Notes under the pieces: generated by a model
What the model was told of the DNA's origin: nothing
Seen by the model: the letters and a program-made list of their open reading frames with translations, nothing else
The model's database searches: none
Made by a program: the position numbers and the translations under genes
Part shown: positions 1-56,771 of the stretch, piece after piece
How the letters are laid out: every line of letters starts with the position of its first letter
How positions within the stretch are numbered: the first letter of the stretch is position 1
Assembly (NCBI GenBank): GCA_043754375.1
Contig: JAYUVA010000164.1
Coordinates: 1,945-65,944 of the forward strand
DNA from: Candidatus Kuenenia sp.
GTDB taxonomy: Bacteria > Planctomycetota > Planctomycetia > Planctomycetales > Planctomycetaceae
Direction: 5' to 3'
Length of the DNA: 64,000 nucleotides

Positions 1-232
1 TCGCCGCTTGGAACTGCGGAACAAGCGCGTCGTCACGCTCGCCGAACAGCGCGAGGCGGAGCGGCGCGATTTTCCGGACCGTTCCGCGCGGCGAATCGTT
101 CCGCGCGGAAACGAAGCCGATCGCAAGCCCAACATTATGGAAAGCGTCGAGGGGCCCGAGCCGTCGGTCGATCAAACGCTGGTCGATTCGGTATACACCG
201 CGCGGAACGTCCAAGTTCTTCGATTTCGTTAG
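1..232 (+). CDS. 3' end of an upstream gene running off the left window edge (partial, unknown product)
   Basis: The frame is open from nt 2 to the stop at 230-232. G+C is as high as in the following genes. No recognisable motif. Confidence 0.3.
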   Translation, partial: RRLELRNKRVVTLAEQREAERRDFPDRSARRIVPRGNEADRKPNIMESVEGPEPSVDQTLVDSVYTARNVQVLRFR

Positions 233-303
233 CGACTCACGGTCGCGAACGACGACGCGGTTGCGGCGATACACCTTAAAACGGCACCCGAGATTCCAAC
301 ACT

Positions 304-3300
304 ATGGCCAACCGTTACATCTTGCTGAATAGCGCCATGCCGCCGTCGAGTGCGGCGGGACTCATCTATCCAGTTTGGAAGATTTCAGGTCCCACCTCGT
401 TCGAGTGGGGCCTGATGACCTCGGCGGCAGGTGACAACCAATACTTGCGAACCACGCTGGAGAAATTGAGGCTGGTCGAGGATGCGAGCAACGGCGCTTG
501 GACGGTTTACACATGGCCGTTCACGCCGGCCTTCGATGGAAGCACGCTGTTGTCGGCGTATCCGAATTTCGGTAGCCCGGCGGATATTACGGGGCTCGAC
601 GCCTGGAAGTTGCCTGCGGGGACGCAGGTCTTCACTCAGTACACATTCGCGGGCACGGAAACGAATACGGACTTCAACTTGCTGAAGTTTCGGCCTACGG
701 CTCCGTCTGCAGTCAGCTTGGGACCGGTCGGCTCGTTGGTCAACGCCTCGTTCGTATGGCATTTCGGGACGGCCTCTCCGGTAATCGCCGCAGATCGAGC
801 GCTCAATTTGCCCGCCGACTTGTTTTTGTTTCGTTACGAGGACGGTTGGGGCGGGCCGCTGAAGCTGAACAACGCCCCGTTTATCGCGGGCGTGACCGAC
901 CGATTAAGCGACAACGCCGGTCGGCGGTCGATCTTGAAGCTGGCCGACGGATCGTATCGGCTGGAACTGAGGTTCGACGCGCCGTTTTCGCCGTCGTACT
1001 TCGGGAACGGCATCTGCCAAATCACCATCGCCGAAGCAAGCATCAATCTCGGATTCGGCGAGGAGGAAGGGAACGCGCTGGCAGTCTACCTGCACGACCC
1101 CGCCGCGCGCGCTTGGTTGAACGTGCGGGTCGATATGTCGCCGATCACGGCGGTCGGCACGAAACTTCCGTCGCTCGTGATCCCCACCGGCCCGCCGGCG
1201 GCGGCGTTTGAGCTGAAATTCGCCCTGGGGGGATGGGACGGTGCTCCTTTGGCGGGCGATTTGACAGGACCGGCGCTGTTGCCATTTCAATTCGACGACC
1301 GGGTCCATAGTCGCGGCGGATTCGAATTCAATCCCGACGTGTTTCGACACGATCCGGCGCATTCGGTCGTTGACCTGGTATCGATTCTCTCCGACGTCGC
1401 GGGTTCCGATCTGGATCTGAGCGACTTGGCGGAGGGCGCGGACGTCGCGATCAAGCTGTCGCAAGCGCCAGTCAATCGCATCCCGATGACGCTGATCGAC
1501 GGCGACCGCAAGGTTCGAATTCCGCTTTTGCTGGCGCTGGACGCCGGGCCGCTGCTGGGACGCCTGTCGGTCGTCTTGTGCCTCGACCTCGACTTGGTTT
1601 CGTTACGGCTCGTCGTACCCGCGACCCCCGATGGAAGGCCCGAGGGAAGAATCGATTCTTTCCTCGCGACGGCTGGCAACACGGACGACATTCAATTGCT
1701 GGACTTAAAGGCGTCCGCTTTCAAGGTACCTTCGCGCGCGATTGACTTCGCGACGTTCGCCACGCGACTCCCCGACGGTTACTTCGACAGCTTGACGCAC
1801 CAATTCGTGTTGCTGCAGCGTACCGACCCCGCTGCGCCCCCCGCGCCTTCGATCGCATTTCCGGGAGATTTGGCCTCGACGGCAGGCACGTTCGACGGTC
1901 GTCTGGAATTGAAACTGCGGACGGTGAACTTCAAGGATTACGCGCCGGACCATCCGCTGGCTCAGGTCGGAATCGGAGGCGGATACGACGGGGTGCTCTT
2001 GGCGGTGGGCAAAGAGGGGGTGACGTTCCACGCGGAATTGAAGACGCAGCAATCAATCGAGCTGATGGAGGCGACGGCGTCGTTGAAAAGCGTGGAATTG
2101 CGGGCGTTACCCAATCTCCCCAACGGCGACGCCAGCGAGATTTTGATGATCGACAGCGGGATCGTGAAAGCGCAGGTCGCCTTCGAGATGGACTTGCCGG
2201 GCTTCGAGAACGCCTCGATCGCCGGGACTTTCGAGCTTCGCCGGACCCGGCGCGACGGCCCGCCGTCCGTCGTGGCCACGTTCGACGTCCGCCCGAACGA
2301 TCCGCCGGTGGTCGGCGAACTCGGTTCGAAGTTCTTTGAAGCCGAACTAACACGAATCGCGCCCGTGCTTTCGTGGGAAGCCGGGAAGTGGAAGGTCTCG
2401 GTGCGGGCCTGGGGCTTCTTCGCGATCGCCGATCGGGTCGATGGTTCGGCGGCAGGGACATTTAAGGACGAAGCTCGGCTCACGTTTGAAGCGTTGGAAC
2501 TCACGAACCTGCACAAGCCTGATGATGTAGAAGTCACTGTGAGCATTTCGCGGCGCGATCCGGCGATCCGGTTTTCGCTGCTGGGAGGAAAGCTTCGCTG
2601 CCGGATGGGGCAGTTGGGAATCGGTTGGCGGTTGGGCACGGGCCGAGTCATGTCGATCGATTGCCGGGACGTGAGCTTCGACGTCGGCTCGGAGGCCTCG
2701 TTGCGCGTCGGCTTCGACACGGGACGGTTGTTGCTGAAATGCGACGCGCACAACAACTTGTCCGCGAGCTTTCCCGAATCGGTTCGGCTGCGTGTCACCG
2801 TCGGGTCGACGTTCTCCTTCACCGGAGAGGCCTCCTACAAACGGCCTGAACCGCGGATTCCCTACGGCGAAATCGGTGCCTCGGGCGAAGTCGAAGTCGG
2901 CGGGATCAACGCCGCAGTAACCTTGAAACTCGCCGTGGTCAAGAAGCAGGGCGGTGCCCTGCAAGCCGCGCTCGTTCTCGGGGGTGGGAAGGTCATCAAC
3001 AAGCAAATCAGCCCTGTGATTTGTGTCTACTCTTTTCTGGCAGGCGCAGCGGTGAACTACCGCTTGCGTGGCATCAGTTCGCATCCGACGGCGACCCAAC
3101 TTGTCGAGAACATCGATCGGCTGGATCCCGAGATACTGGACAACTGGGACTTGGTGGTCGACGACGGCATTTACGGCGCCGTGTTCGGCAAGGCGTTGCT
3201 GACCACGACGGTAACGCAGCCGACCGTTCCGAACGCATACGTTGCGACGTTGCTGGTGAGCGTCGATTCGCAATTGCGATTCCTCGGCGCCGGGCGGATG

Positions 3301-6300
3301 TGGATTTCCTCCAGCATCGATTTCGCGAAAGGGAATTTGGATCGACCGGTGCTCTTGGGGGGCGTCGCGTTCCTGCCTCGCGAACAGGAGTTGTCGCTGC
3401 ACTTGGAGACCCGTCGAAATCCGGCGATTCAGAACAATCCACAACTCGAATTGATGCTGCACGGCGCAAAAGGAACGCTGGACTTCGTCGCCGCCAGGAA
3501 CCTGGCCGACATCCAGGTTCGTGTCAATTTTCGCGAAGACCTGTTCGGCATCAAGATGACGTTCGACGGAGGCCTGCGACTCGCGATATTCGCCGGCGCC
3601 GTACTGGCCAAGGCATGGTTCCAGGCTTCGGCGTCGTTCGAGAAGAGGTTCGAGCGCGGAGCGGCGGGCATTGTTTTCAATGCGAATTTCTCCGCCTCGA
3701 CCGATTATCGGATGCTTCTGCAAGGAAACGGGATCACGGGTTACGCCCACGTCGATCAATCGCTCGACGCACGAGTCGAAGCTTGGATGGAGATCGAGGT
3801 GCTGGTCTGGGTAGAACGCTCAGTCAAGAAACTGCTGGAGTGGGTCACGCAACGAGAACAAGAAGTGCAGATGAGCCGGATTTCGGGTCGGATAAGCGCC
3901 CATCTTCGGTTCAATGGTACGGCGGGATTGTTGTCTGACAGTGGAGAGGCCGGATTCGCCGGTACCGTCAGCATCGGCGGGTCGCTGCGCGGTCACTCGT
4001 TCGGCATCGACGTCGACCTCAACGTGAAAGACGGAGTGGTCACGACGGCTTTGAAGAGGCTGGAAAAGTACGAGCGCCGACTCGATCAGGCCATTGCCGA
4101 CACGTTCGGCCGATTTGCCTTGGGGGGGGCGCCATCGAAAACGAATGCCAATCCTAGTGAGCTGTGGGCAATCCATTCCGAACGGCGGGTTGTCGACGGA
4201 AAAGAAGAGATTCACTTCTTGCCGTTGCCCCAACGCTATGGGAAGTGGTTTTTAGGACCGGTGCTTGCGGTCATCGACGCCGACTCGGAGACACCGCAGT
4301 TCGAAGAGCATGTTACCAAGATCGAATTTTACAGCGGCGGAACCCTCATACACGAGCTATTTCCGTTCTGGATTTGGCCCGTCCACCGCCTCGAACTCGA
4401 AGTCGAAGAACAACGCCGCGCCCAACGGGCCGAGACGGCATTTTTTCCCACGTCCGGCCATCCGTCGGTGACTCCGACACATGATCATATTGTTCGCGAT
4501 CCGAGACTCGAATCGCGGGCGCGTGCCTATTGGCGGGAGGCCGATCGCCTCTCCTATCCCGACTTTGCCGCACCGGCCCGATTCGCTCCTCTCGAAGAAT
4601 TGGCGGCGAACCCCGATCTGCCGGGCTTGAGCAAGATTATCGAGTACGAGCGGAAACGGCTCGCCGCGGCACAGGCGGAACGGGTGCGGGCGGAAGACTT
4701 GGAAGAACCGGAACAACTCGAGCGGGCCAAGGGTGGGCTCGTTTTCGGATTGGACGAGGAATTGAACGGGCGGGCCGATTCGCCGCGATTCGAATCGATT
4801 TCGCTGCCGCCCAATGGAGCGGTGACGCGCGAGCTGGGGCTGATCGCGCGAATTCCAAAGGCCGTCGCGATCAGCATCGACAATGTCCGCGTTCACCGTT
4901 CCGAAGGTCTCCCCGTCGACATCCCGACCGATTCGCCGCAGCCGGCCACCCCGCCTCCGCAGTTCCGCGCGTTGCCTTGGGGACTGGACTTCGTCGAGGC
5001 CGGCGAAGAGCAGCGGGAACTCGGCGTGACGGGGGCCGTCGTGGTGCGGCTCCCGCTGTTTATTCCGGACTATTTCTTGCACCTGGACGGCGACGGCGTC
5101 GGCGTCACGGCCCTGGGAGGCGTCGACATCTTTCGGCGGTTGCCGGGAGAACCGCCGCAGCGGATCGCTCGCGGCGTGCTGCCGGGCGTCACGCGGGTCT
5201 TGTCGGAAGACACCACCGAGATGTATTCGTTTCCGGAGCCGTTCATCTACAGCGACGCATTTCCGGTTCGGGGAGACGCATTCGTCGACGGACGGATTCT
5301 TGAGGGGCGCACGCCGGTGCTGTACAGCTTCGAGGTGCGTGATCTGCGCGGAGATTCGCTGGGTGTCGGCCAATGGAGTCCAGTACGGCTATTTATTCCA
5401 GCCGACTCCACGTTGCCTTCCAACCTCTGCGTCGTCGTCGCGATGGAACAGTTGAATCCGGAACGAACATTGCCCCGGGGGCACGACGCGGCCGACGAGC
5501 GATTGGAAATCACGTTGTGTACGCTCAAAGACGGCGTGGCGAAGCCGCTGCCGTTTTCGGATTCCGAAGTGGAACTCCACGTTGAAGAGAAGCCCACCCT
5601 GTTGTCGGGGTTCTACACGGGGGATGAGTTCCGACCCGGCGAACCACGTCCGAACGGACTTCTGGACGACGTTCGAGGGGATAGTCGTTCGGAATCGCTA
5701 GGCGAGAAATTCCGGTTGTTTTCGCTGCAAGGGGACAGAGGCCGGTTTACGGTCGCTCGGGACGACCTCCACGCCGGATGCCGCTACCGCTTCTTCGTTC
5801 GTCTCGCGACGCGCAATGAAGACATGCCCGTTTTGCCGGCCGAAGTCGGCCTCGTGCCGCATACCGACGATCTGGCGAACCCGGAAAAGGTCGAAGCCGC
5901 TCGACGTTTGGAATGGCCCGCGATTGCCGGAACGCTCGGCTCCCTGCCGAAAAAGAAGTTTTCGGCGGACGCAATCGTGTTTCGCGAGCGAAATTGGGTG
6001 CGAGTGAAATGGGACGCGCGCGAAAGAAGCTACGGCGGGGCCGAATTGATTCTCATCGACCGACACGATCCGAGCCTGATCGTGCGGCAACGAGTCGAGG
6101 TATTCAGCCGCGACGTATTCCTCGAAAGTCAGCAGGATTTTTCGTCGGCTACGGGATGGACAGTCGAGTCGGCTTCGCTCGGCCGACTGCGCACGCCTGG
6201 GCCGCGGACTCCGGTCGTGCCGAAGAATATCGAGGAGTACTACGCGGACTTATTGGTCTTGAAAGAACGGGATTTGATTAAGGATCTCGTGTGGACTAAC

Positions 6301-9054: not shown

Positions 9055-9068
9055 AGGATTCCGAACTA

Positions 9069-12000
9069 ATGAGCGACACAATGACAAGTGCGACCGTGTT
9101 CGGTTCCGAAGCGACGCTATCGCCGGTGCCGGAATGGCTGCGGCTGGTGATCCGGAGCGAGTTCGCCCCCTGGTCGCTCAGCTTGTACGTCACTCGTCGC
9201 TGGCTGAGCGCGCCGGAGCAGGAGGGATTGTCCGAGGCGGCGGACGAATTGTTGCGCCGGCGGCGCTTGGGGGAGTGCGCCAGTTCGACGACGGCGGGGC
9301 GGTTCGCCGTCGTGGTGCCATCGACGGCGCTTGCGTTGCGATGTTCGCCGGGACTTTCGGTGCTCACGCTATTCGGGAACGAACTAGCGGCCGACACCGG
9401 ACGTCGGCCTCGGAACTTGTCGGTCAACGGGCTGGTCCGACTGGACGACGCTCGCGACGACGATTTGTATTTGACACTGATCAACGGAGCCGTGCGGATC
9501 GAGAACTTGAGCCGCCGTCCGACGATATTTGACGGCACGGCGGACCCGGCGCTCATTTGGCCGACGCCCGGCGACGCAACGGGAGGGAGTGACGGGAACG
9601 AACCGCTAGACGCCCTGTTGCTCGGATCGACGGACGTTCACGTCGATTTGAGCCGCGATATCGACGAGCGATTGCGATTTCGATATCAGCGGACGCTCGC
9701 CGACGGCCGGCGGCTATGGATGATGGTCGGCTGCCCGTTCCATGCCGAGGTCGTCGCCCCGCAAGTCGAAGCAAAGAACCAAGTCGACAGTATCAAGGCT
9801 CTGTTGAGTAACGTCGCCAACGGTGCCGTTCAATTGGAGGTTTCTGAGAACACAGGAGCGATCGTCTATGCGACGACGTCGTATCGAACATGCACGACGC
9901 TGACGCAGAATGTTGCCGCCGGCGCACTCGAATTGTCGACGCGGCACCGAGTTCGTAAGGGCTCGCGGATCGTACTTGGTCCGGGGACGCGTTTCGAAGA
10001 GAGCGTAGTCGCGGACGACGTATCGCCGGAATTCGGCGAAGCGGACGCATACCGCATCACGCCGTCGGCCCCGCTTCGTCACAAACACCCCCGATGCGAA
10101 CCGGTTCGGACGGAGGGGGAGCGAGAAGTCCGAAGGTTTTTCCAAGTTCAGGCGACAATCGCCTTGGTGAACGCCGACGGTACCCGAACGCATTGGCGTC
10201 CGCGGACGTTTTATCTTCGGGACGACGAAGGAGCAGGCAGCTCGTGGGCGATGGACGGCGGCGATCCGTTCGACGACGACTCGGCCCCGGCTCCGACCGG
10301 CGGCGTCGCCGCGAAACCGTTGGCCCTGAAATGGGACGCGGCGAGATTGTCGTTGCTGAGGTTGCCCGAGTTGCAACTGACCGGGGCCGACAACCGCTCG
10401 GGGGACAACGACTACTTGTGGCAGCCGGCGATTGTCGTGCACGGAGGAACCCCCGAGCCGGCGGCGCTCGTGCGGCTGCGATTCGCGGCGACGGAAGCCC
10501 GAGTGCGCGATACGGCCGACGCCCGATTCGATCGCCCCTTAGGGGTCGAGTGGGAAGACGACGACGGCGGGAAGTGGACGATCGAAGGGAGGCCGCTCGA
10601 CGCGATTCCAGGCCGACCGTCGACGATCGAATTGCGGGTGTTTTTCACCGTCCCGGTGTCGACGCGGGTTTTCAATCGAGCGGTGCTGACGCTTTCGGAT
10701 CCGGAGGTGCTAGTGCGGTCGCCGGCGACGCAGATCTATGCGCCTCCGGCGCCGGAAGCTGCGGGGACGCTGACTACGGACCCTGGTCGTCCGCCGCACT
10801 CGGCCCCCTTCGCATATCCGGCGCTGCGCTTGTGGAGGACGAAAAACTTCGTGGTCGGTTCCCTGCACTTTCGGAATCTGCGGTCGATCGGCAAGCGGCG
10901 TGTTTGGACGACGATAGATCCGGACGTGGAACAGCGACTGCGGTTCGAGGCACACGACGCGGTGAGAATCTACCGACCGCGGGGGACGGCCGTCATTGAC
11001 CTGGCTTCGGTGGCGAGGCCGAACGTGACGGCTTTGAACGTCGAAGCTTCGCCGGTGGCACGCGATCCGTCGCACGGCCTGATCGCCTTCGAGGTGGAGG
11101 CGTTTTGCTTGGCGTCCGACGACGCCGTCGGGCCGACGCTGGAATTGCTGGACCCTCGGTTAGGCCCGCCGGACATCGCACGGGCGACTTTGGCCCTGCA
11201 TCCGTGGGTGGAAGTGGCGGCCGACGGCACATTGTCGGCGGCGCACCGGAACCTGATTCTGGAAATGATGGAGTACGAACTGGCGGGGCGGTTCGGATTT
11301 CACGTCGCCGAGGAGCCGCCCGCCGATTTTCTGACGAACCGGGCAATCGCTGCGGTTCGGGGACGATACACACTCGCTTCGGATTCGCTTGTCGCGGGAA
11401 CGCCCGGAGAGTTGAAAGGCTGGCTGCCCGGAGTCGATCTGAACGACGGTACCAACCCGATCACGCCGACGCTGACGTGGCTCGATGCGGGAACGTCGCC
11501 GCCGGTACTGGATTTGGACGATGGCATCGGAGCCCCAACTCCTTTGAGTATCGAATCGCAACCCGACAGGGACTTCAGCTGGTTGCACCTCCTGCCGGAA
11601 TGGAGAAACCCGGGATCGGCCCGGCCGGAGGTGACTCTCACCGCCCCGTTGATCGACGGCTTGGGACGGGAATTGTATGCGGGACGCAACACGCGCAACG
11701 GAGGGATACCCTGGTTGTTTCCGAATCGTACCGTGCGCCCGGCGCCGGATGACGACCTTTTTCCGGGGGTGCTCGCGGCGGCGGGGAACGGTCGGCTGCT
11801 GGCGGTCGGGACCGCGGCGGGTGCCCACGTATGGCCGCGAAGGGCGGAAGCCGCGCTGATCACGTTGCCGCACGATCGCCCGGTCGTGCAGGTCGCGATC
11901 GCGCCCGACGGCGTCGGGGGGGAACGCCGGGTGATCACAGTCACCGACGACGGGAGCGTGCACGGCTGGGATGTGGCGACGCCCGGAGAGGCCGCCTGGA

Positions 12001-15000
12001 GTGAGGGCCCGTGGGTCGCGCCGGTCGATTCCTCGACGACACGGATCGCCGTCCATTCCGACGGCAGGTTGGTCGTCGGTGGTGCGGATGGAAGCGTGCG
12101 GATCGTGGATGGAGCCACGGGTACCGTCGAAACCGCGATTGTCGGTTTGCCGGTGGTTTTCGCGGCATGGTTCGAAGAAGGTGGGCAACCGCGAGTCTTG
12201 ATCGTCGAATCCGACGGCGGCTCGCAAGCGCGCGCCTATGACGAAGACCTGAACGAAACGTGGCATGTGCCTTTGGCCGCCGTCGACTGTGCGGCCGTTA
12301 CCGCCTCGAACGCAGACGGGAAGTTTCTCTGGACGGTATCCGGCAACAACCTCGTTCGGACGCCGCTCCCCGGCGGTACGGGTGCCGGGGGTTCGGATCC
12401 CGTCGTCGCCGATCTGACGCGGTTGACGGCGACGACTGGCCATCGGCTATCGATCAGGAAGGCGCCCGAGCCCGTGATATTTCTGACGGCCTTGCGGGAA
12501 AACGGCGAATTGCATCAGTTTACTTACTTGCTCGCGTCGAACACCCTCGAAGGAAGTCGGCTCCCCGATTACGGAGCGGGAATCGCCATCCGTGCCGTCG
12601 CGATGCCCGCTTCGGCCCACGGCGCGGTCGGATGGGCGGGGCTGGCCGACGGCCGAATGGTGCAGTGGGACGCGAACACTGGAACGCCGATCTCTAGTAC
12701 GCACACACCGCCGGCACAATTCTTGGACAACGTCGGTGCGGTCCGAGCGACGCAGCCCGCCGTTGTTTCAGACTTGCCCCACGGGCGCTTTCGCGTCGAT
12801 CGCGCCGAGCTGGCGGCCGAAAATGGAGTCGGGAACCCGACGGTGGCGAAGTCCTTCACGGGGGAATTGACGTTGGCGTTGTTCGACGCGCCGATTGCCG
12901 GTGCATCTCCGCGAATCACCGACATTCGACTGAAAACGTTTCAGCCGACGGTCGACGAGAATAAAATCGTGCTGAAGGCCGACTCCGCGTTGCCGGACGC
13001 GGGCTACGTATTTTATTCCAAGGTGCGAGCGGATGCAGGAACCAAGGTTGTCGTCGACGACTGGCCCCGACTGGCGGGCGCGCCTTTCCGCGTTACTCGG
13101 CTGTTGAACTTCGATTGTGTCGACGGCGTTCTGAAAGAATTGACGTTCGAAGCCGTCTTCCCGGCCCCGACCGAGGTGGCGGAGGCGGACGATGCATCGA
13201 CTGAGCCGGCCCTGGTGGCCGACTCGGTGCGACGGAAAAACGTCGCGGTGATCACCATGAAGGTCACCGTCGCCGATCCGGAGTTTCCGATCGTCGCGTT
13301 GAATCAGATCGATGTCGTTTGTCAGACCGAATGGCGGTGGGACTTCCCGCCGCCGGTCAAGACGGGGTTCCCGGCCAAGCAATTCACGGCCGGGTTGCTC
13401 ACCTTGCGCGGAGCGCTCCTTTTCGCCGGCGGACGATTGGCCTTCCGGGCCAAATCAGGGGACGTCGACACGCTGGGAGTCATCGTACCGCTTGAAATGC
13501 CGCTTCCGGATTTATTCGCCGACGGCGACGGAAAGGAATTCGGATACGCCTCCGAGACGTGGGTTCCCGACGTGGAATTCGACTCTCCGGTCGATGCCGT
13601 GTTGATGACGGTGTTCGCAAGCCCGGTCAGCTTGTTTGCGATCGCCGCCGACGGGACCGGCGAGATCGTACAACTTGACTTGTATGCAGAACGCGTTTGC
13701 CGTCGATTCAAACGCCAAGCCGGCGCTGTGACCGACATCGTCAAGGCGGCGGCCGCCCGACCGCGGAAGAGCAATCCGGCCGACTCCCGCGTCGTTCCGC
13801 ACCTCGTCGTGGGCGACGCCAACGGCGGCGTGTGGCGGATCCAAGAGCCGATCGCCTCCACGTCGCCCGGTACGATCGAAATGACATTGGTCGACAGGTT
13901 CGTGGGGATCGCGCCGGCCGTGCGTGCCGTCGGCGTTTCGGCGGTCGATGACGGTCTCCCGGAGAACGTCAAGGTTTTCGCCGCCGAGGACAACATCGTC
14001 CACAGTTACCCAGTCGTCGGCGTTTCGACGTACGTTGCCCGTGAGAAAGTGACCTGCATCGCGACGGCGGTCGATGCGGCACCGGAGCAGCCGGTCGGAT
14101 TTTTGCTGGCGGGCTGTGAAGGGGGAGACCTCTCGATTTTCAAGGAGGGGACGGCCGCGCCGCTCTTCCAGGACAAATTCGGCGACGCGACGATCACCGC
14201 CTTGGCGATCACCGACTTGGCGATTGCCGACGGGATCGCGCGGTTGTTGGTTGGCCACTCAGACGGCTGGGTTCGATATTTCCAGATCATGCACGTCGCG
14301 GGAACATTCTCCAAACTCTTGCTCGGTGAATTCGCGACACTGGCGGGAGTGGCGTCGTTGAGTTTCGCCTCCGTCGACGGCAGGGAGGGATGCATCGCCG
14401 CGGGAGTCAATGGCCGGGTGCGCAGCTTCCGGCTGGACCCGCCGAAGAATCCGCTCGTGTTGCGATTCTCGCATGACTTGCCGCCGATGGCGGGCGCGGT
14501 TCCGACGACGGTCGCTCCGGGCGGCGCCGGGCGGATCGTCTCGATTTCCGCCGACGGCGAGTTTCAGGTCTTCGCCGCCCATCCGCAGATTTCGATCCGG
14601 GCGGACTTGGAACGACCCTCGGATCGGCCCTTAATCCAAGTGAACGCTCGGTTGGATTCGCTGGATTTGGGAGTCCCCGCAGCGAATCCACCGAAGATCG
14701 CCGCCTCGGTGAAGGCCGACGCCCGACTCGACCTCCGATGGACGGGCGACGCTGGATCGTTTCCAGCGTTGCCGGCGTTAGTGGAGAACGGAACCTACGC
14801 GTTTGTCGCCCAGGTTCAAACCGACGATTGGTCGGAAGGAGGAACGCTGCTGGCCCTGCGTTCGGAACCATCGACGGGCATCGGAATGCTCGGCGGATGC
14901 GTTCTGACGGAGAGCGTGGAGTTGCTTCAGCTGAAGGTCAATGGCAAACTGGATCTGGAAGGTTGGGTGCTCAACCTACAGTATAATTACTCGGTGCCGA

Positions 15001-17504
15001 ATCACGCCTCGGGTTTGTTGGAATGGGACTTCGCGAGGTTCTGCGGAGGCGTCTTGAAGGGAAATCGCGACGGCGACAGCGACGAGGTCGAATTGTTGCT
15101 GTCGGACCAGTTAACGACGCTCCGTGTCAGACGAGTGATGCAGAAGCTCCTCATCTCCGGCGTGTTGCATGTGAAGGTCAATCACGACCGCGACGGAGAC
15201 GGAGTCGCCGACGCGATCCGATTCCAGGCGCCGATTGCACTGGCGCCCGACGCGCAGACGCCGATGCAGAGCAATATTTTAGCCGCCCTGAAAGACACCG
15301 TCTTCCTGCCGGAGCCGTTGATCGTCAATCCGACGAATGCGGCGGACGTGATTGTGCCTTTGGACCGATCGTTATTTTGGGGCGGAGCGATTCCGTCGAG
15401 TGCTGCGAGCGACGTACGTCCCTCGGGTCCGGTTTTGTTGCGGCTCGACAACGCGGGTCTAACGCTTTCGACGTTTCCCACAGCGGCGCTGCCTTACGAT
15501 CCGTGCTTGGAGTCGGGCGCACAAGCGCCGGTGCCGCTCCAGCCGGACTGGGTTCCGCGGCTAGTGCATCGGATTGATTTGGGGGGCTTCCTCAACGTTC
15601 GCGTCGCGGCGCTTACGCCGATCGAGCCGGCGGCGGAGCCGGGCGGTGCGTTTCTCGGCGACCCGGACGTCGATATTTGGAACTTGAAACTGCTGGCTTT
15701 CGACGCACAGGCGTCGTTTGCCGGAATCTTGGCTTACGCTGTCGATGCAATCGTTCCCGATAAGTTCGAAACCAACTCGGATTTGGTTCAAACCGAAAAC
15801 GTGTTCGTGCTGCATTCGACCCGATTGCCGCCCGACGCAGAACTCGACGATTGCACCCGGATTCAACGTCGGTTCGTTCCGCTGACCGGCCTGCTCAATA
15901 TTACGGAAACGGTTTCGACGTCCGGACCGGAGTCGCCCCCGCTCTTGACGATCGACGATATTCGGTCGCGGATGTTGAAGAAGGGGGCGACAGGGACGGC
16001 CGTTCACAGAATTGTCCGGCCGGGAGAGCGAGCGGTATTTCGATGGATCGCCTCGCCGTCGGTCGATTCCGCGGTTCTGGTGTCGGATACCAAACGATTG
16101 GTCGCGGACGCGCCACGGCCATTCCAGCCGAGCATCGACTTGCGAAGCCTTCAGCCGGCGACGGCGAGATGCTGGTCGATCGTCAATGACCACCAAATCG
16201 CCGACGCCCGAGGATTGGCGGTGTTCGAGTCGAACGTGGCCGACGACGCCGTCGAGGCGGGATGGAGGCGAAACATCTGCCTGACCTGGCAAGGGGAGGG
16301 AGATGAGTTGGCGACTCGGCGGCCGAGCGTGCGCGTCGTCGAGCGCCCTATCTGGAACGACGACGAGGGGCAACCGGGCTGGCTTCGGCCGCCGATCGTC
16401 GTTGATCGAGATACACATGATCGCCAGTTTCTTCCGCAGTATCTCGAAATTTGGGGGGCGACTGAGAAAGCGGGATCGATGTTCGTACAGTCGGTCGGCG
16501 TGTTGTGGAGCGATCGGAATGCGGACGGCTCCTCCCTGCCGCCAATGAGGCTCACGCCCACGGCGATCGGCTGCAGCCGCGATCCGCAGCAATTCATAGT
16601 GCCGGAGGAAGCGACAATTGAGATCCTCGGTGATCCGAGTTGGAGTCCGAACCCTGTGGGGGTCGGGGGCCGCGACCTGACGGTGAGCTGGAAGGAAACG
16701 CTCTGCGGGCTGCCGCTCAACCCGTTAGAATTGTCGGACAGCCTGACGATCGATTTCGACCTCGGCACGGGAGACTACTCGCTCGAACTCCAGCCTAATA
16801 CCGAGCGTGCGGCTGCCCTCATCAGTCGGGTGCATGAGCGACTGTTCGCGACGACGCCCGAAGCGCCGGACCTGCCGATCGCTGCGGACGGCGTCCGACC
16901 ACGTCCCGATTTGTACTTGGTATCGAAGATCGGGAATTTGGATGATCCTCGTCCCGCGACAAACACGGCCACGCTGCTCGAGCCGAAAGTGACGCTGGAA
17001 TTCATGGACGCCTCACTCAATTCGATTCATAACTTCCGCGACGTTTTCGTATCAATTCCGTCCGTAGGGACACACTTCGCTTGGAAGATGAAGGACGATT
17101 TCGTAAATCGTATCGCGTGGTACGATTCGCCAGATAAGCGGGTGACGGCCATCGCGTTGGTCTTCACGGAACCCAACACTGACGACCCGGAGGTTGATGT
17201 GGTGCGTACCGACGTTCGTCCGGCGCCGGGAACGCCCCTCGCGGCCAAGACCGCCGTGATCTTAACGGTGGAATCGGGCGGAACTCGGATCTTCGAGCGA
17301 ACCTGCCTATTCGGCGACGCGGCAAGCTCGGAAGGAATCGCCGCAGTTGACGCGCGCGACGTGTTCCTGTTCAGCCGGCAGGACCACGAAGAGGTCACGG
17401 TATTCCCTCCGGCGAGCTTGCCGTCTGGTGCCGTGGCAAAGGTGTATTTGGTGAAGACGTTCGGCGACGGAGCCGTGCTATCGACGAACAAGAATATTCC
17501 TTGA
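9069..17504 (+). CDS. Giant protein 2 (2811 aa) with WD40-like beta-propeller repeat clusters, unknown function
   Basis: Uninterrupted 8.4-kb ORF starting 14 nt after giant ORF 1. GAGGA lies about 10 nt upstream of the ATG. Blade-like motifs: VITVTDDGSVHGWDV (11931-11975), LVVGGADGSVRIVD (~12068-12110), LVVGDANGGVWRIQE (13801-13848), LLVGHSDGWVRYFQI (~14243-14287), IAAGVNGRVRSFRL, IVSISADGEFQVFAAH (~14534-14581). Confidence 0.85.
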   Translation: MSDTMTSATVFGSEATLSPVPEWLRLVIRSEFAPWSLSLYVTRRWLSAPEQEGLSEAADELLRRRRLGECASSTTAGRFAVVVPSTALALRCSPGLSVLTLFGNELAADTGRRPRNLSVNGLVRLDDARDDDLYLTLINGAVRIENLSRRPTIFDGTADPALIWPTPGDATGGSDGNEPLDALLLGSTDVHVDLSRDIDERLRFRYQRTLADGRRLWMMVGCPFHAEVVAPQVEAKNQVDSIKALLSNVANGAVQLEVSENTGAIVYATTSYRTCTTLTQNVAAGALELSTRHRVRKGSRIVLGPGTRFEESVVADDVSPEFGEADAYRITPSAPLRHKHPRCEPVRTEGEREVRRFFQVQATIALVNADGTRTHWRPRTFYLRDDEGAGSSWAMDGGDPFDDDSAPAPTGGVAAKPLALKWDAARLSLLRLPELQLTGADNRSGDNDYLWQPAIVVHGGTPEPAALVRLRFAATEARVRDTADARFDRPLGVEWEDDDGGKWTIEGRPLDAIPGRPSTIELRVFFTVPVSTRVFNRAVLTLSDPEVLVRSPATQIYAPPAPEAAGTLTTDPGRPPHSAPFAYPALRLWRTKNFVVGSLHFRNLRSIGKRRVWTTIDPDVEQRLRFEAHDAVRIYRPRGTAVIDLASVARPNVTALNVEASPVARDPSHGLIAFEVEAFCLASDDAVGPTLELLDPRLGPPDIARATLALHPWVEVAADGTLSAAHRNLILEMMEYELAGRFGFHVAEEPPADFLTNRAIAAVRGRYTLASDSLVAGTPGELKGWLPGVDLNDGTNPITPTLTWLDAGTSPPVLDLDDGIGAPTPLSIESQPDRDFSWLHLLPEWRNPGSARPEVTLTAPLIDGLGRELYAGRNTRNGGIPWLFPNRTVRPAPDDDLFPGVLAAAGNGRLLAVGTAAGAHVWPRRAEAALITLPHDRPVVQVAIAPDGVGGERRVITVTDDGSVHGWDVATPGEAAWSEGPWVAPVDSSTTRIAVHSDGRLVVGGADGSVRIVDGATGTVETAIVGLPVVFAAWFEEGGQPRVLIVESDGGSQARAYDEDLNETWHVPLAAVDCAAVTASNADGKFLWTVSGNNLVRTPLPGGTGAGGSDPVVADLTRLTATTGHRLSIRKAPEPVIFLTALRENGELHQFTYLLASNTLEGSRLPDYGAGIAIRAVAMPASAHGAVGWAGLADGRMVQWDANTGTPISSTHTPPAQFLDNVGAVRATQPAVVSDLPHGRFRVDRAELAAENGVGNPTVAKSFTGELTLALFDAPIAGASPRITDIRLKTFQPTVDENKIVLKADSALPDAGYVFYSKVRADAGTKVVVDDWPRLAGAPFRVTRLLNFDCVDGVLKELTFEAVFPAPTEVAEADDASTEPALVADSVRRKNVAVITMKVTVADPEFPIVALNQIDVVCQTEWRWDFPPPVKTGFPAKQFTAGLLTLRGALLFAGGRLAFRAKSGDVDTLGVIVPLEMPLPDLFADGDGKEFGYASETWVPDVEFDSPVDAVLMTVFASPVSLFAIAADGTGEIVQLDLYAERVCRRFKRQAGAVTDIVKAAAARPRKSNPADSRVVPHLVVGDANGGVWRIQEPIASTSPGTIEMTLVDRFVGIAPAVRAVGVSAVDDGLPENVKVFAAEDNIVHSYPVVGVSTYVAREKVTCIATAVDAAPEQPVGFLLAGCEGGDLSIFKEGTAAPLFQDKFGDATITALAITDLAIADGIARLLVGHSDGWVRYFQIMHVAGTFSKLLLGEFATLAGVASLSFASVDGREGCIAAGVNGRVRSFRLDPPKNPLVLRFSHDLPPMAGAVPTTVAPGGAGRIVSISADGEFQVFAAHPQISIRADLERPSDRPLIQVNARLDSLDLGVPAANPPKIAASVKADARLDLRWTGDAGSFPALPALVENGTYAFVAQVQTDDWSEGGTLLALRSEPSTGIGMLGGCVLTESVELLQLKVNGKLDLEGWVLNLQYNYSVPNHASGLLEWDFARFCGGVLKGNRDGDSDEVELLLSDQLTTLRVRRVMQKLLISGVLHVKVNHDRDGDGVADAIRFQAPIALAPDAQTPMQSNILAALKDTVFLPEPLIVNPTNAADVIVPLDRSLFWGGAIPSSAASDVRPSGPVLLRLDNAGLTLSTFPTAALPYDPCLESGAQAPVPLQPDWVPRLVHRIDLGGFLNVRVAALTPIEPAAEPGGAFLGDPDVDIWNLKLLAFDAQASFAGILAYAVDAIVPDKFETNSDLVQTENVFVLHSTRLPPDAELDDCTRIQRRFVPLTGLLNITETVSTSGPESPPLLTIDDIRSRMLKKGATGTAVHRIVRPGERAVFRWIASPSVDSAVLVSDTKRLVADAPRPFQPSIDLRSLQPATARCWSIVNDHQIADARGLAVFESNVADDAVEAGWRRNICLTWQGEGDELATRRPSVRVVERPIWNDDEGQPGWLRPPIVVDRDTHDRQFLPQYLEIWGATEKAGSMFVQSVGVLWSDRNADGSSLPPMRLTPTAIGCSRDPQQFIVPEEATIEILGDPSWSPNPVGVGGRDLTVSWKETLCGLPLNPLELSDSLTIDFDLGTGDYSLELQPNTERAAALISRVHERLFATTPEAPDLPIAADGVRPRPDLYLVSKIGNLDDPRPATNTATLLEPKVTLEFMDASLNSIHNFRDVFVSIPSVGTHFAWKMKDDFVNRIAWYDSPDKRVTAIALVFTEPNTDDPEVDVVRTDVRPAPGTPLAAKTAVILTVESGGTRIFERTCLFGDAASSEGIAAVDARDVFLFSRQDHEEVTVFPPASLPSGAVAKVYLVKTFGDGAVLSTNKNIP

Positions 17505-17583
17505 CAACGAGCGCACCCATTTCGACCTTGAGTTGCAACGAATCCTAATTTCTCGAATGAACACTTACTTTCTAAGGACGACG

Positions 17584-18144
17584 ATGATGATCCGACAGCG
17601 ACGACTACTCGTAACGGTGGCTATACTGGCAACAATGGTGTTTCCGCAATGGCCCGGCAATGCGTCGGCGCGGGATTTGTTCCCGCGGCGCTGCTGTTGC
17701 CCGCAGTACTCGACGACATTGCGACAGGGGGCGTTGACGGTCGACATCACGGGGCCGCAATACAATATCGTGGAAGCTTACTTCAACGACCGCGTCTATC
17801 GGACGGAGTTTGCTCATACGACAAATTTGCACCTCGGGCGCGTCCTATTATCACCTGGAAACGAAGGCGCCTTCGCAGTTCGGTACGGTGCAGGTAATGC
17901 GAATATCCGCTTCATCGCGTGGAAGAACGGAATTGCCGAGATTCGTGAAAGCTCGGCCCGCCCCGTCGCGGTTCTCTTGCCAGGAGACGGGCCGATCATT
18001 GCTGAATGGAAAACGTCGGCCGTACTTCGTTTGAGTCGCTTCAACTGCGGCGTTAATAACGTTTGCATGATACGCTGGCAGGAATCTACCAAAGATTGGC
18101 AGTACGCCGACGACAGCGGCGCATTCCTCAACATTCCGCGGTAG
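17584..18144 (+). CDS. Small secreted protein (about 186 aa), unknown function
   Basis: ATG at 17584 has AAGGA 5 nt upstream. The N-terminus MMIRQRRLLVTVAILATMVFPQWPGNASA looks like a signal peptide with an ASA cleavage site. A CCC cysteine triplet follows shortly after. The track ORF starts earlier, at a TTG. Confidence 0.55.
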   Translation: MMIRQRRLLVTVAILATMVFPQWPGNASARDLFPRRCCCPQYSTTLRQGALTVDITGPQYNIVEAYFNDRVYRTEFAHTTNLHLGRVLLSPGNEGAFAVRYGAGNANIRFIAWKNGIAEIRESSARPVAVLLPGDGPIIAEWKTSAVLRLSRFNCGVNNVCMIRWQESTKDWQYADDSGAFLNIPR

Positions 18145-18298: not shown

Positions 18299-18988
18299 AT
18301 GAGCGTATGGACCGACTTCGAATCTCTTACGATCGACGATGCAGATACGCTGAGCGACGAATTCGCGCTCTCGTTCGACAAGGGAATTACCAAATTGGTG
18401 ATCGCCATCATTACCGAGGCGTCCGGCGACAACAGAACGTATCCGTCGTTCGCTTTTCCGTCGGTCGGCCGCCCAATTGCATTCCCATTTTCTGATGAAG
18501 TTCTGGCCTCCGAGCTTTTACTAGACGTTTGTTGGGCCGCCGGCTTGAGCCCTCGAGCCGTGAACCTCTTGGCCGATGGAACCAAAGGCTCGCTTCGGTT
18601 CGTCGTTGATCCGCTTTCGACGTGGGCGACGGCACGCATTTCAGTAGACGCCCTCAAAGATTCAGCGGATCTCAATATCGATCCCCTCAATGTTCTAACG
18701 GGAGGGACGGACAGCGGCGAATTTGTCGGCGAGATGCAACTCGAAGAGATATTGGAAAAATTGGATGTCTTCTCGATCCAAGCGCATCCACTCTCGTTGC
18801 AGCAGTGGGTCAGTTTGCGTCTGCCCAACCCGGTTTGCTTCACGCAGTTCATGGATGCGATCGCCTTCTCATTGTCGGCCCACTGGACTTGGGCGGGGAA
18901 CGCCGTGTACTTGGGCCCGCCAGGCTGCTCGGGTGCTTGTTCTTCGAGCAAGAGCGAGGCCTGCGCGTCTATGGCAAACGGTGGCTGA
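18299..18988 (+). CDS. Hypothetical protein (229 aa)
   Basis: ATG-initiated ORF with an acidic, protein-like composition. The fully overlapping minus-strand ORF 18277-18951 is Ser-rich and looks like a shadow ORF. Confidence 0.45.
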   Translation: MSVWTDFESLTIDDADTLSDEFALSFDKGITKLVIAIITEASGDNRTYPSFAFPSVGRPIAFPFSDEVLASELLLDVCWAAGLSPRAVNLLADGTKGSLRFVVDPLSTWATARISVDALKDSADLNIDPLNVLTGGTDSGEFVGEMQLEEILEKLDVFSIQAHPLSLQQWVSLRLPNPVCFTQFMDAIAFSLSAHWTWAGNAVYLGPPGCSGACSSSKSEACASMANGG

Positions 18989-56707: not shown

Positions 56708-56771
56708 AGGACTTCTCCTGGAAGTACGAAGAGCGAGCAGATCGAGATTCATTGACCAGTAGGCATTCGTG

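What the first reader, a model, noticed from the sequence alone, without database searches (positions are those of the whole stretch)
304..17504. Tandem pair of giant orphan genes (2916 aa + 2811 aa) in a G+C-rich block
Two uninterrupted ORFs, 14 nt apart, occupy 17.2 kb. By eye, neither has a signal peptide, P-loop, HKD, HExxH or other catalytic signature. The second has two clusters of WD40-like blade motifs (about 11.9-12.7 kb and 13.8-14.6 kb). Sampled lines are 55-75% G+C, against 38-65% for lines sampled in the rest of the window. The high-G+C block ends at the stop of the second gene.

Directly downstream lie a small secreted protein, an unknown protein and an SLT/lysozyme-like protein. 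This is a co-transcribed pair of very large proteins of unknown function, beside a mobile defence island. It could be a surface or injection-type apparatus, a toxin-delivery pair, or a very large sensor/effector system. I cannot tell which.
Basis: partly seen in the sequence, partly recalled or inferred. Interest (0 to 1): 0.62.

Follow-up and report, generated by a model that had tools for sequence, protein, structure and literature searches.

The report
Planctomycete giant gene pair with toxin neighbours
Two real genes for ~2,900-residue proteins are not orphans: they are the fixed core of an undescribed, patchily distributed gene module of Planctomycetota, which in other genomes sits beside changing sets of toxin-like enzymes, so it is a candidate new toxin-delivery or conflict system.

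Summary
ORF1 (304-9054, 2916 aa) and ORF2 (9069-17504, 2811 aa) are intact and 14 nt apart, in a block of 62% G+C against 54% elsewhere. Neither has a signal peptide, TM segment, Walker A, HKD or HExxH motif.

"Orphan" is wrong. An exhaustive HMMER search with ORF1 residues 1-1200 found 92 representative proteins of 2,400-4,700 aa, and those aligned are homologous along the whole length. All seven that carry an organism name are unnamed proteins of Planctomycetota. In every locus I could read, the ORF1 homologue is directly followed by an ORF2 homologue. Often they overlap by 4 nt.

The unit is larger than the finding. The gene cut by the window start matches an HExxH zincin that precedes the pair in two other loci. 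ORF3 (secreted) and ORF4 travel with the pair in the closer relatives.

Elsewhere the same upstream position holds a papain-like protease, a Tle1-like lipase, a protein-glutamine deamidase, an EEP enzyme, a polysaccharide deacetylase and DLH esterases. The seven in locus L014 lack signal peptides.

A confident AlphaFold model (pLDDT 82) shows the ORF1 core as a ~39-strand amphipathic beta meander. Its only fold likeness is weak, to giant beta-barrels.

Best reading (about 0.4): a new delivery or encapsulation scaffold for separately encoded toxins. The function is not shown.

The parts
2..232 (+). 3' end of an upstream gene cut by the window start. It is the C-terminal tail of a zincin-like (HExxH...P-N-I-M-E) protein; the HExxH motif itself lies outside the window.
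   Evidence: The translation matches the C-terminal tail of L009_333, whose motif is AHELGHYWGLIDEY (36% identity over 56 aa, E 2e-7). It aligns with L013_375, whose motif is AHEFGHHLGLQDEY. Both of those genes lie directly upstream of ORF1 homologues. Its GC3 of 0.71 matches the giant genes.
304..9054 (+). ORF1, 2916 aa: a member of an undescribed family of giant proteins of Planctomycetota
   Evidence: ORF and translation. Pfam, NCBIfam, PADLOC, PHROGs and PDB give no match. HMMER found 92 representative homologues, 65 of them at E<=1e-30. Full-length alignments are A8 and A9, with the start Met conserved.
1999..4026 (+). Conserved core of ORF1 (aa ~566-1241): a large antiparallel beta meander of 39 strands in the DSSP readout, each up to 23 residues long
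   Evidence: AlphaFold2 with a 38-sequence alignment gave mean pLDDT 82.3, mostly above 90 in aa ~880-1160. The strands are amphipathic: Kyte-Doolittle 2.38 against -0.86, and 6% against 32% charged residues on the two faces. The best Foldseek matches are giant beta-barrels (LptD, SlpA, FimD/PapC), but only at TM <= 0.21.
9055..9068 (+). 14-nt spacer; a GAGGA Shine-Dalgarno-like site overlaps the ORF1 stop, suggesting translational coupling
   Evidence: Sequence read. In homologous loci the two genes overlap by 4 nt (L009, L011, L014) or 14 nt (L012), or lie 11-12 nt apart (L013, JGI 3300047160).
9069..17504 (+). ORF2, 2811 aa: the constant partner of ORF1 and a member of a second undescribed giant family
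   Evidence: ORF and translation. Homologues: P0003 at 51% identity; the L009 partner at 24% over 1,518 alignment columns, E 4e-52; six-sequence full-length alignment A13. No PDB or Pfam family beyond weak propeller hits.
11751..12698 (+). Probable beta-propeller 1 of ORF2 (aa ~895-1210)
   Evidence: Sub-threshold Pfam hits: PQQ_2 1.6e-4, Beta-prop_EML_2 1.7e-4, WD40 5.7e-3. The L009 ORF2 homologue gives weak propeller hits at its own aa 990-1098; correspondence of the two regions was not checked. Repeated 'DG-x-h-x-x-W/F' blade-like motifs are read directly. The structure model of this region failed (pLDDT 27).
13566..14588 (+). Possible beta-propeller 2 of ORF2 (aa ~1500-1840)
   Evidence: There is only a weak Pfam hit (Beta-prop_BBS7, E 0.2, aa 1677-1741), plus blade-like motifs read in the sequence. 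Inconclusive.
17584..18144 (+). ORF3, 186 aa: a small secreted protein with a signal peptide followed by a Cys cluster; it accompanies the pair in the closer relatives
   Evidence: Homologues lie directly after ORF2 homologues in L001 (51% identity, E 5e-53), L002 and L003. Genes of matching size and position follow in JGI 3300047160 (193 aa, no DNA available) and in the Logan contig that is this window's own sequence (186 aa). No Pfam family. A weak PDB-profile hit to ribosome-inactivating proteins (E 0.06) is treated as chance.
18299..18988 (+). ORF4, 229 aa: a conserved accessory protein of unknown function with a C-terminal Cys-rich tail (LGPPGC-x2-C...C)
   Evidence: A profile search gave six proteins. 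All lie beside giant-gene homologues where the contigs are long enough. A distant homologue lies upstream of the pair in L009 (27% identity, E 3e-18). Orientation differs between loci. No Pfam or PDB match.

Best explanation
What it is. ORF1 and ORF2 are the invariant, translationally coupled core of an undescribed accessory gene module of Planctomycetota.

Likely role. I think the pair most likely builds a large protein scaffold, either a shell or a pore, that handles separately encoded small toxin or effector enzymes in conflicts between organisms. Functionally this would resemble ABC (Tc) toxin complexes or the payload islands of injection systems, but the pair is unrelated to them in sequence and fold.

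This window. The candidate payload here would be the zincin-type metalloprotease whose 3' end is at 2-232. ORF3 (secreted) and ORF4 would be lineage-specific accessory proteins, possibly for protection, chaperoning or adaptation.

Shown:
- The genes are real and under purifying selection.
- Two full-length conserved giant families are always adjacent.
- They occur patchily in Planctomycetota, in differing and often mobile or defence-type surroundings.
- Arrays of toxin-family hydrolases directly upstream recur but vary, and the seven in L014 lack signal peptides.
- The ORF1 core is a ~39-strand amphipathic beta meander, followed by helical hairpins and beta-sandwich domains.

Inferred, not shown:
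- That the neighbouring enzymes are cargo.
- That ORF1's continuous apolar sheet face closes into, or packs as, a shell or pore wall.
- That the ORF2 propellers bind a target or act as a gate.
- The export route and the target organism.
For: Constant pairing. The pair is adjacent in the window, JGI 3300047160, L009/L010, L011, L012, L013 and L014, down to 21-26% ORF1 identity in aligned members. The junction is a 4-nt or 14-nt overlap or an 11-14-nt gap.

Variable enzyme arrays.
- L014: seven co-oriented genes directly upstream. They include Peptidase_C1 (4.8e-16), Exo_endo_phos (5.5e-7), T6SS_Tle1-like_cat (2.4e-49), Gln_deamidase_2 (4.9e-31) and Polysacc_deac_1 (2e-9). None has a signal-peptide-like N-terminus.
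- L013: Peptidase_C1 (6.8e-36), DUF4062, DLH (9.7e-16) and an HExxH protein upstream.
- L009: an HExxH protein upstream.
- Window: the tail of the same HExxH family.
- JGI 3300047160: DLH nearby.
- Peptidase_C1 recurs in two loci, DLH in two and the zincin in three.

No other delivery machine. No T6SS, eCIS or Tc genes lie within about 10 kb in any of these loci (same calls).

Structure. The model has pLDDT 82. It shows long amphipathic strands with one face only 6% charged. The best fold likeness is to the largest known beta-barrels.

Distribution. Nearly all 90% clusters are singletons, and the only organism names are Planctomycetota. Neighbours include transposases, ArdC, BREX, nucleases and ParB-like genes.
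Against: - There is no experimental evidence of any kind, and no RNA data.
- No secretion signal or export machinery was identified for the giants.
- The putative cargo proteins share no detectable common targeting region.
- L012 shows no recognisable enzyme neighbours on its short contig. In L011 the only one nearby is an alpha/beta hydrolase with a signal-like N-terminus, which sits beside an ECF sigma factor gene.
- The Foldseek matches are only local, with TM <= 0.21 (rank 5: TMt 0.21) and rmsd 24-31 A. I could not inspect coordinates, so a closed barrel or shell is not demonstrated.
- Only ten loci were examined, several of them truncated. The enrichment of toxin-type neighbours was not tested statistically.
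- The C-termini of both giants are conserved, not polymorphic, unlike classical polymorphic toxins.
Confidence: 0.4

Rival explanations
1. It is an anti-phage or anti-mobile-element defence system. The giant pair would act as a sensor or scaffold, using beta-propellers as ligand sensors. The adjacent hydrolases (zincin, papain-like protease, lipase, EEP nuclease/phosphatase, DUF4062 protein) would be abortive-infection effectors.
For: In the window the pair lies next to BREX-type genes, a PLD+helicase pair, a STAND NTPase and ArdC. In L002 it lies next to a YhcG PD-(D/E)xK nuclease and a 1,887-aa SNF2-like helicase. In L011 it lies next to DUF2357/PDDEXK_7 and ParB-like genes. In L013 it lies next to a DUF4062 protein and a transposase. 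The distribution is patchy with singleton clusters. Some ORF1 homologues carry extra WD40 propellers in the variable N-terminal part.
Against: There is no NTPase, nuclease, TIR, SIR2 or other usual defence domain in either giant, and no PADLOC hit. Secreted or lipoprotein partners (ORF3, L009_167, L009_287) point to the envelope rather than to cytoplasmic sensing. An array of five different toxin-type enzymes (L014) is unusual for a defence operon and typical of offensive effector islands. Six kilobase-scale... rather, about 17 kb of coding sequence is a very high cost for a defence gene pair.
Confidence: 0.2
2. It is an accessory cell-envelope or surface structure, such as a giant pore, anchor or coat. 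The neighbouring hydrolases (polysaccharide deacetylase, esterases, proteases) would remodel the wall or process the giants during assembly, and would not be toxins.
For: The ORF1 core is a huge amphipathic beta meander whose nearest fold likeness is to outer-membrane barrels and to the SlpA S-layer/outer-membrane protein. Secreted protein or lipoprotein partners are present. According to Kohn et al. 2016, citing Reva and Tummler 2008, more than 90% of bacterial giant genes encode surface proteins or PKS/NRPS, and Planctomycetes are rich in giant genes (PMC5177795).
Against: There is no signal peptide on either giant, although ORF3 in the same operon has a canonical one. There are no adhesin-type repeats or Ig/cadherin/lamin-tail domains. 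The protein-glutamine deamidase, Tle1-like lipase and EEP enzymes are not wall-assembly enzymes. TM-scores to barrels are <= 0.21.
Confidence: 0.2
3. The pair has an intracellular structural or unknown cell-biological role, and its neighbours are coincidental passengers of variable genome regions.
For: Both proteins look cytoplasmic by sequence. Some loci (L012, L011) show no toxin-like neighbours. Only a handful of loci could be inspected.
Against: The same enzyme families (zincin, Peptidase_C1, DLH) recur directly upstream and co-oriented in independent, highly diverged loci. The patchy distribution argues against a basic cellular role.
Confidence: 0.15
4. The long ORFs are not real genes; they arise by chance in G+C-rich DNA or from misassembly.
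For: High-G+C DNA yields long spurious ORFs, and many 100-470-aa ORFs overlap the region on other frames.
Against: Uninterrupted frames of 8.7 and 8.4 kb are present. There are homologues at 20-56% identity over the full length. A natural variant shows third-position bias in its differences. Depth is an even 10-12x in two runs. The AlphaFold model built from the family alignment is confident.
Confidence: 0.01

Closest known systems
ABC (Tc) toxin complexes (TcA + TcB-TcC) of Photorhabdus, Yersinia and Serratia
   Same: Both use very large proteins without Sec signals, encoded side by side on variable or mobile DNA. Both have a beta-rich wall and beta-propeller elements. Both are associated with enzymes that act as toxins. 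In Tc toxins the scaffold is constant and the toxic enzyme is variable. These Tc properties are from established knowledge, not tested here.
   Different: There is no sequence or fold relationship. VRP1, TcA_TcB_BD, SpvB, TcdB_mid and RHS hits are all absent, and so is the YD motif. No Tc structure appears among the top 50 Foldseek PDB matches. Here the candidate toxins are separate small genes, not a C-terminal extension of a TcC-like protein, and the C-termini of the giants are conserved.
Effector or payload islands of contractile injection systems (T6SS vgrG islands, eCIS/PVC payload genes)
   Same: A row of small, signal-less enzymes of toxin families lies next to conserved structural genes. 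These include a T6SS Tle1-like lipase domain, a deamidase, proteases and a nuclease/phosphatase-fold enzyme. The set differs between genomes.
   Different: No sheath, tube, baseplate, VgrG, PAAR or ATPase genes lie within about 10 kb in any locus. The conserved part is just two giant proteins of new families.
Giant single-chain outer-membrane beta-barrels (LptD, FimD/PapC ushers, Deinococcus SlpA)
   Same: These are the best structural matches to the ORF1 core: a long up-and-down antiparallel beta meander with amphipathic strands.
   Different: The likeness is only local, with TM <= 0.21 and rmsd 24-31 A. ORF1 has no signal peptide and is 3-4 times longer. There is no sequence similarity.
Giant genes of Planctomycetes (surface proteins with Ig-like, lamin-tail or cadherin domains; PKS/NRPS)
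   Same: The host phylum and the size class (>5 kb) are the same. Such genes are reported to sit in regions of unique gene content and genomic islands (PMC5177795).
   Different: None of the adhesin or PKS/NRPS domains is present, and there are no repeats or signal peptides. This is a fixed two-gene pair with its own accessory genes.

Membership tests
Tc / ABC toxin complex | TcA-type domains (VRP1, neuraminidase-like, TcA_TcB_BD), or TcB/TcC-type SpvB, TcdB_toxin_mid and RHS repeats with an RHS core | tested here: not met
   Pfam scans of ORF1, ORF2 and 11 further ORF1 homologues found none of these. There is no YD-repeat motif. No Tc structure appears among the top 50 Foldseek matches.
Rhs/YD or other polymorphic toxins | A repeat-built shell or stalk, plus a variable C-terminal toxin domain with an adjacent immunity gene | tested here: not met
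   There are no repeats. The C-terminal regions of both families are conserved across loci. No toxin domain is fused in 12 members.
Contractile injection systems (T6SS, eCIS) | Sheath, tube, baseplate, spike and ATPase genes in the locus | tested here: not met
   None is found among the called genes and Pfam hits within about 10 kb in the window, JGI 3300047160, L009, L011, L012, L013 and L014. ORF1 and ORF2 have no PHROGs hit.
Known anti-phage defence systems (PADLOC set, including BREX next door) | A match to a defence-system protein model | tested here: not met
   PADLOC gave 0 families for ORF1-ORF5. The BREX-type genes at 38-57 kb are a separate unit that is not found next to the homologous pairs.
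WD40 / PQQ-type beta-propeller (domains within ORF2) | Six to eight blade repeats recognised by a propeller model at or above the family threshold, or a confident propeller structure | tested here: inconclusive
   All Pfam propeller hits are below the gathering scores. The L009 ORF2 homologue gives weak propeller hits at its own aa 990-1098, and the L013 homologue a faint precomputed one. The AlphaFold model of aa 1-1200 failed, with pLDDT 27.
Outer-membrane beta-barrel proteins (LptD, usher, SlpA type) | A cleavable signal peptide and a closed transmembrane barrel that superposes globally | tested here: not met
   There is no signal peptide. TM-scores are <= 0.21 and rmsd is 24-31 A.
Zincin metallopeptidase (the upstream gene at 2-232) | An HExxH zinc-binding motif plus a downstream third ligand | tested here: inconclusive
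   The window holds only the C-terminal tail. Its homologues L009_333 and L013_375 carry AHELGH/AHEFGH...DEY and a conserved P-x-[IM]-M-E motif. Pfam gives only weak hits: Peptidase_M6 at 5.9e-4 and M78 at 0.01.
SLT / lytic transglycosylase (ORF5, 19228-20067 minus strand) | A match to an SLT or lysozyme-like model containing the catalytic Glu-Ser motif | tested here: not met
   Pfam finds 0 families even at E <= 10, and there is no PDB sequence match. Only an 'ES...MQ' string is seen by eye. The gene is not conserved beside homologous pairs.
Planctomycete giant surface proteins / adhesins | A signal peptide plus tandem Ig-like, cadherin, lamin-tail or similar repeats | tested here: not met
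   There are no such Pfam domains, no repeats and no signal peptide.

The most novel reading that the evidence does not exclude
The ORF1/ORF2 pair would be a new class of protein-toxin delivery machine, specific to Planctomycetota. Two ~3,000-residue proteins, unrelated in sequence and fold to Tc toxins, Rhs, T6SS or eCIS, would assemble into a giant beta-walled shell or pore. This would load separately encoded enzymes (zincin, papain-like protease, Tle1-like lipase, protein deamidase and others) and deliver them into competing bacteria or eukaryotic grazers.
Probability: 0.3. Interest if true: 0.85.

Novelty: categorically new. Interest (0 to 1): 0.72.

Why it matters
Planctomycetota are rich in giant genes of unknown role. 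No dedicated protein-toxin delivery machine specific to the phylum turned up in my four literature searches.

This work turns an apparent pair of orphans into a defined two-family module. It has about 90 representatives, a confident model of its core fold, a set of accessory genes, and a recurrent link to toxin-type enzymes.

If the delivery reading is right, it adds a new architecture to the short list of bacterial toxin-translocation devices, with possible uses as a protein-delivery chassis. If it is instead a defence or envelope system, it is still a large, conserved and structurally unusual piece of planctomycete biology.

The module occurs in Isosphaeraceae bacterium EP7 and Planctomycetales bacterium 10988. 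Both have single-contig genomes of 6.6-7.0 Mb and strain-style names, so I take them to be cultured. The question should therefore be directly testable.

Tried and rejected
Searches that found nothing for the giants:
- Pfam, NCBIfam, PADLOC and PHROGs, apart from weak propeller hits.
- PDB sequence searches, with single sequences and with family profiles.
- Scans of genome, metagenome and viral contig collections with back-translated peptides. The patterns were too specific.
- megablast of window 1-20000 against plasmids, and tblastn of the ORF1 core against plasmids and phages.
- tRNA and Rfam scans of the window.
- A search for RNA sequencing runs.
- Four literature searches found no description of this module.

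Searches that misled or failed:
- The word-index homology search found no ORF1 relative and only one ORF2 relative. That was a limit of the search, not true orphan status, as the exhaustive HMMER search showed.
- The AlphaFold run on ORF2 aa 1-1200 with a two-sequence alignment failed, with pLDDT 27.
- Foldseek against BFVD gave no meaningful match.

Ideas considered and dropped:
- ORF1 and ORF2 as paralogues: no similarity.
- The G+C step as an island border: the module continues past it, and the giant gene is also G+C-richer than its neighbours in L001.
- An invertible element around ORF4: only short, chance-level inverted repeats.
- ORF3 as a ribosome-inactivating protein: E 0.06 over a partial region only.
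- ORF5 or L011_191 as a lysozyme: no model support.
- An HExxH domain fused to longer ORF1 homologues: none found.
- A shared N-terminal targeting region among the small enzymes: none at BLAST level.
- A repeating beta-groove lipid-transfer fold: the strand and helix periodicity of the model does not fit five-strand repeats (my reading), and there is no TM anchor.


Full report
**Observation**

The window holds two uninterrupted ORFs at exactly the stated places: 304..9054 (2916 aa) and 9069..17504 (2811 aa), both on the + strand. They are 14 nt apart, and a GAGGA site overlaps the ORF1 stop codon.

G+C is 0.621 for 1-17504 and 0.537 for the rest of the window. GC3 is 0.74-0.75 in the two genes.

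Neither protein has a hydrophobic N-terminus, a convincing TM segment, or Walker A, HKD, HExxH or YD motifs. There are no internal repeats and no detectable similarity between the two.

The DNA is real. It lies at an even 10-12x depth in two sediment metagenome runs. A freshwater-sediment run holds fragments 88-98% identical, and 20 of 38 listed differences in ORF1 fall on codon position 3.

**Known families**

Pfam, NCBIfam, PADLOC, PHROGs and PDB sequence searches give nothing for ORF1. For ORF2 they give only sub-threshold beta-propeller hits, at aa 901-1020 and aa 1677-1741. An ORF2 homologue in L009 gives weak propeller hits of its own at aa 990-1098, and the L013 homologue a faint one.

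**Not orphans**

The word-index search suggested orphan status: no ORF1 relative, and one ORF2 relative at 51% identity. This turned out to be a sensitivity limit of that search.

An exhaustive HMMER search with ORF1 aa 1-1200 found 92 representative proteins, 65 of them at E<=1e-30. Most are 2,400-4,700 aa long.

Alignments of 12 and of 25 members show conservation along the entire length. This includes the start Met, a dense core at aa ~560-1260, and C-terminal motifs such as RPHH, NLLERxGFAxD and SRYEPL.

Pfam scans of 12 members show only extra WD40 propellers, inserted in a few long members.

All seven relatives that carry an organism name are unnamed ('hypothetical') proteins of Planctomycetota. 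They are:
- a Planctomycetaceae MAG
- an Isosphaeraceae MAG
- Isosphaeraceae bacterium EP7
- a Pirellulales MAG
- Planctomycetales bacterium 10988

The last three protein records are WZP00300.1, MDA7978296.1 and QGJ68658.1. Two further relatives lie on 7.8- and 8.8-Mb contigs. Nearly all clusters at 90% identity are singletons.

**The pair is constant**

In every locus I could read, the ORF1 homologue is directly followed, on the same strand, by an ORF2 homologue.

| Locus | ORF1 homologue (aa) | ORF2 homologue (aa) | Junction |
|---|---|---|---|
| JGI 3300047160 | 2940 | 2790 | 12-nt gap |
| L009/L010 | 3031 | 2544 | 4-nt overlap |
| L011 | 4532 | >3303 | 4-nt overlap |
| L012 | 2931 | 2410 | 14-nt overlap |
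| L013 | 3125 | 3546 | 11-nt gap |
| L014 | 4505 | 3991 | 4-nt overlap |

The L009 partner is 24% identical to ORF2 across 1,518 alignment columns (E 4e-52). L013 comes from a complete 7.8-Mb genome. Six ORF2-family sequences align over their full length.

**The unit is larger than the finding**

ORF3 (17584-18144) is a small secreted protein with a Cys cluster. ORF4 (18299-18988) has a Cys-rich C-terminal tail. Both follow the ORF2 homologue in L001, L002 and L003. In JGI 3300047160 an ORF4 homologue (P0008) and a 193-aa gene of ORF3 size and position do the same, but no DNA was available there.

ORF4 lies on the opposite strand in three of these loci. In the more distant L009 it lies upstream of the pair.

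The 3' gene fragment at 2-232 matches the C-terminal tail of a 333-aa protein that directly precedes the ORF1 homologue in L009. That protein carries AHELGHYWGLIDEY. A 375-aa protein in the same position in L013 carries AHEFGHHLGLQDEY. So a zincin-type gene precedes the pair in this window too, although its catalytic motif lies outside the window.

The G+C step at the ORF2 stop is not a unit border. In L001 the giant gene is also richer in G+C than its conserved small neighbours, and in L002 it is richer than its ORF3/ORF4 homologues though not than the neighbouring helicase.

The 'SLT-like' ORF5 has no model support and is not conserved with the module.

**Neighbours elsewhere**

The surroundings differ from locus to locus, and many are of mobile or defence type.
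- Window: a Mutator-family transposase fragment, ArdC, a PLD+helicase pair, BREX-type genes and a STAND NTPase.
- L002: a YhcG nuclease and a giant SNF2-like helicase.
- L011: DUF2357/PDDEXK_7, ParB-like genes and DUF3102.
- L013: an ISL3 transposase and a DUF4062 protein.
- L009: the module lies between two AcrB-type pump genes.

The most telling locus is L014. Directly upstream of the pair and co-oriented with it lie seven small genes. Five belong to known enzyme families: a papain-like protease (Peptidase_C1, 4.8e-16), an EEP-fold enzyme (5.5e-7), a T6SS Tle1-like lipase domain (2.4e-49), a protein-glutamine deamidase domain (4.9e-31) and a polysaccharide deacetylase (2e-9). None has a signal-peptide-like N-terminus.

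L013 has Peptidase_C1 (6.8e-36), DLH (9.7e-16) and the zincin in the same upstream position. DLH also occurs beside the JGI 3300047160 module.

So the two giants are constant, and the adjacent small hydrolases of toxin or effector families vary.

**Structure**

A two-sequence alignment of ORF2 gave an unusable model, with pLDDT 27.

With a 38-sequence family alignment, ORF1 aa 520-1719 was modelled at mean pLDDT 82.3. The model shows three parts:
- aa ~566-1241 form an antiparallel beta meander of 39 strands, some 20-23 residues long.
- A 26-residue helix and helical hairpins follow, at aa ~1243-1487.
- Beta-sandwich-like domains come next, at aa ~1500-1690.

The strands are strongly amphipathic. 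One face has mean Kyte-Doolittle 2.38 and 6% charged residues. The other has -0.86 and 32%.

Foldseek against the PDB ranks the largest known single-chain beta-barrels first: LptD, Deinococcus SlpA and the FimD/PapC ushers, with porins and ApoB100 further down. However, TM-scores are <= 0.21 and rmsd is 24-31 A. BFVD gives nothing meaningful.

I read this as a new large beta-wall architecture with a continuous apolar face. I could not inspect coordinates, so whether it closes into a barrel or shell is not shown.

**Interpretation**

Together these features fit a conflict system in which the giants form a scaffold for separately encoded toxins:
- a constant, translationally coupled giant pair;
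- variable adjacent toxin-type enzymes, without export signals where checked;
- a large beta wall and probable propellers;
- a patchy distribution in variable regions;
- no T6SS, eCIS or Tc genes nearby.

This works like Tc toxins or injection-system payload islands. Membership in those families is excluded by the tests run.

I give this reading about 0.4. The rivals are a defence system (0.2), an accessory envelope structure with remodelling enzymes (0.2), and an unrelated role with coincidental neighbours (0.15).

The weaknesses are these. There are no experimental or expression data. No export route is known. No shared targeting signal was found in the putative cargo. Only ten loci were inspected, and the neighbour association was not tested statistically.

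**Novelty**

Neither giant family, nor ORF3 or ORF4, matches any Pfam, NCBIfam, PADLOC or PHROGs model, any PDB sequence, or (for the ORF1 core) any fold in the libraries available. Every source name found is 'hypothetical protein'. Four literature searches found no description.

I therefore rate the module as categorically new in kind, with its function still open. Carriers with strain-style names and complete genomes exist, so the question should be testable.

Noticed in passing
window 36390-56707: A BREX-type defence locus. It has a BrxC-like gene (DUF6079, 38429-42100), a PglX methyltransferase (42113-46480), PglZ (50332-53280), a BrxD ATPase (53277-54599) and an Lhr-type helicase (54593-56707). 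An SMC/AAA_21 ATPase (46554-49190) and a Schlafen AlbA_2 protein (49157-50335) are inserted between PglX and PglZ.
   Followed up: partly
window 28979-33939: A PLD-like nuclease-domain protein (636 aa) overlaps a 1029-aa ResIII/DEAD helicase. This looks like a separate two-gene defence-type unit.
   Followed up: no
window 56769-61427: A 1552-aa STAND-type NTPase (NACHT/AAA_16 hits at aa ~270-440) with a long C-terminal region that matches nothing.
   Followed up: no
window 20231-21328 (minus strand): A Mutator-family (IS256-like) transposase is split into two ORFs of 253 and 101 aa, covering only part of the Pfam model. It is probably a decayed insertion sequence, lying between the giant-gene module and the ArdC/BREX region.
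   Followed up: partly
window 23467-24390: An ArdC-like anti-restriction protein (ArdcN plus a weak M78/IrrE peptidase hit). This is typical of conjugative elements and suggests the region right of ~20 kb is or was a mobile element.
   Followed up: no
window 18299-18988; L001 8493-9185; L002 8556-9242; JGI 3300047160: The ORF4 homologue is on the same strand as the giants in the window and in L003. It is on the opposite strand in L001, L002 and JGI 3300047160, and lies upstream of the pair in L009. Only short, chance-level inverted repeats flank it in the window.
   Followed up: partly
L009 3-3815 and 24079-26426: The whole module, about 20 kb, lies between two AcrB-type RND pump genes. It looks like an insertion between adjacent pump genes, which would be direct evidence of mobility.
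   Followed up: no
window 17584-18144 (alignment A5): The ORF3 family profile gives a weak hit (E 0.06-0.3) to plant ribosome-inactivating proteins, over the region that holds their active site. This is probably chance, but it is the only hint for ORF3.
   Followed up: partly
window 304-17504; L001 71-7834; L002 10475-13144: The giant genes are richer in G+C, especially GC3, than their own conserved small partner genes in three loci. So the composition difference travels with the genes and does not mark a recent transfer border.
   Followed up: partly
window 19228-20067 (minus strand); L011 8794-9369: Each of these two unrelated small proteins next to giant pairs carries a Glu-Ser/Gly ... G-x-x-Q string that resembles lytic transglycosylase motifs. 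Neither matches any Pfam or PDB model.
   Followed up: partly
L002 2377-8040: A 1,887-aa (possibly 2,131-aa) SNF2-like helicase with WH_1, DUF8437 and Helicase_dom hits lies next to a YhcG/DUF1016 PD-(D/E)xK nuclease. This is another large defence-type gene beside the module.
   Followed up: no
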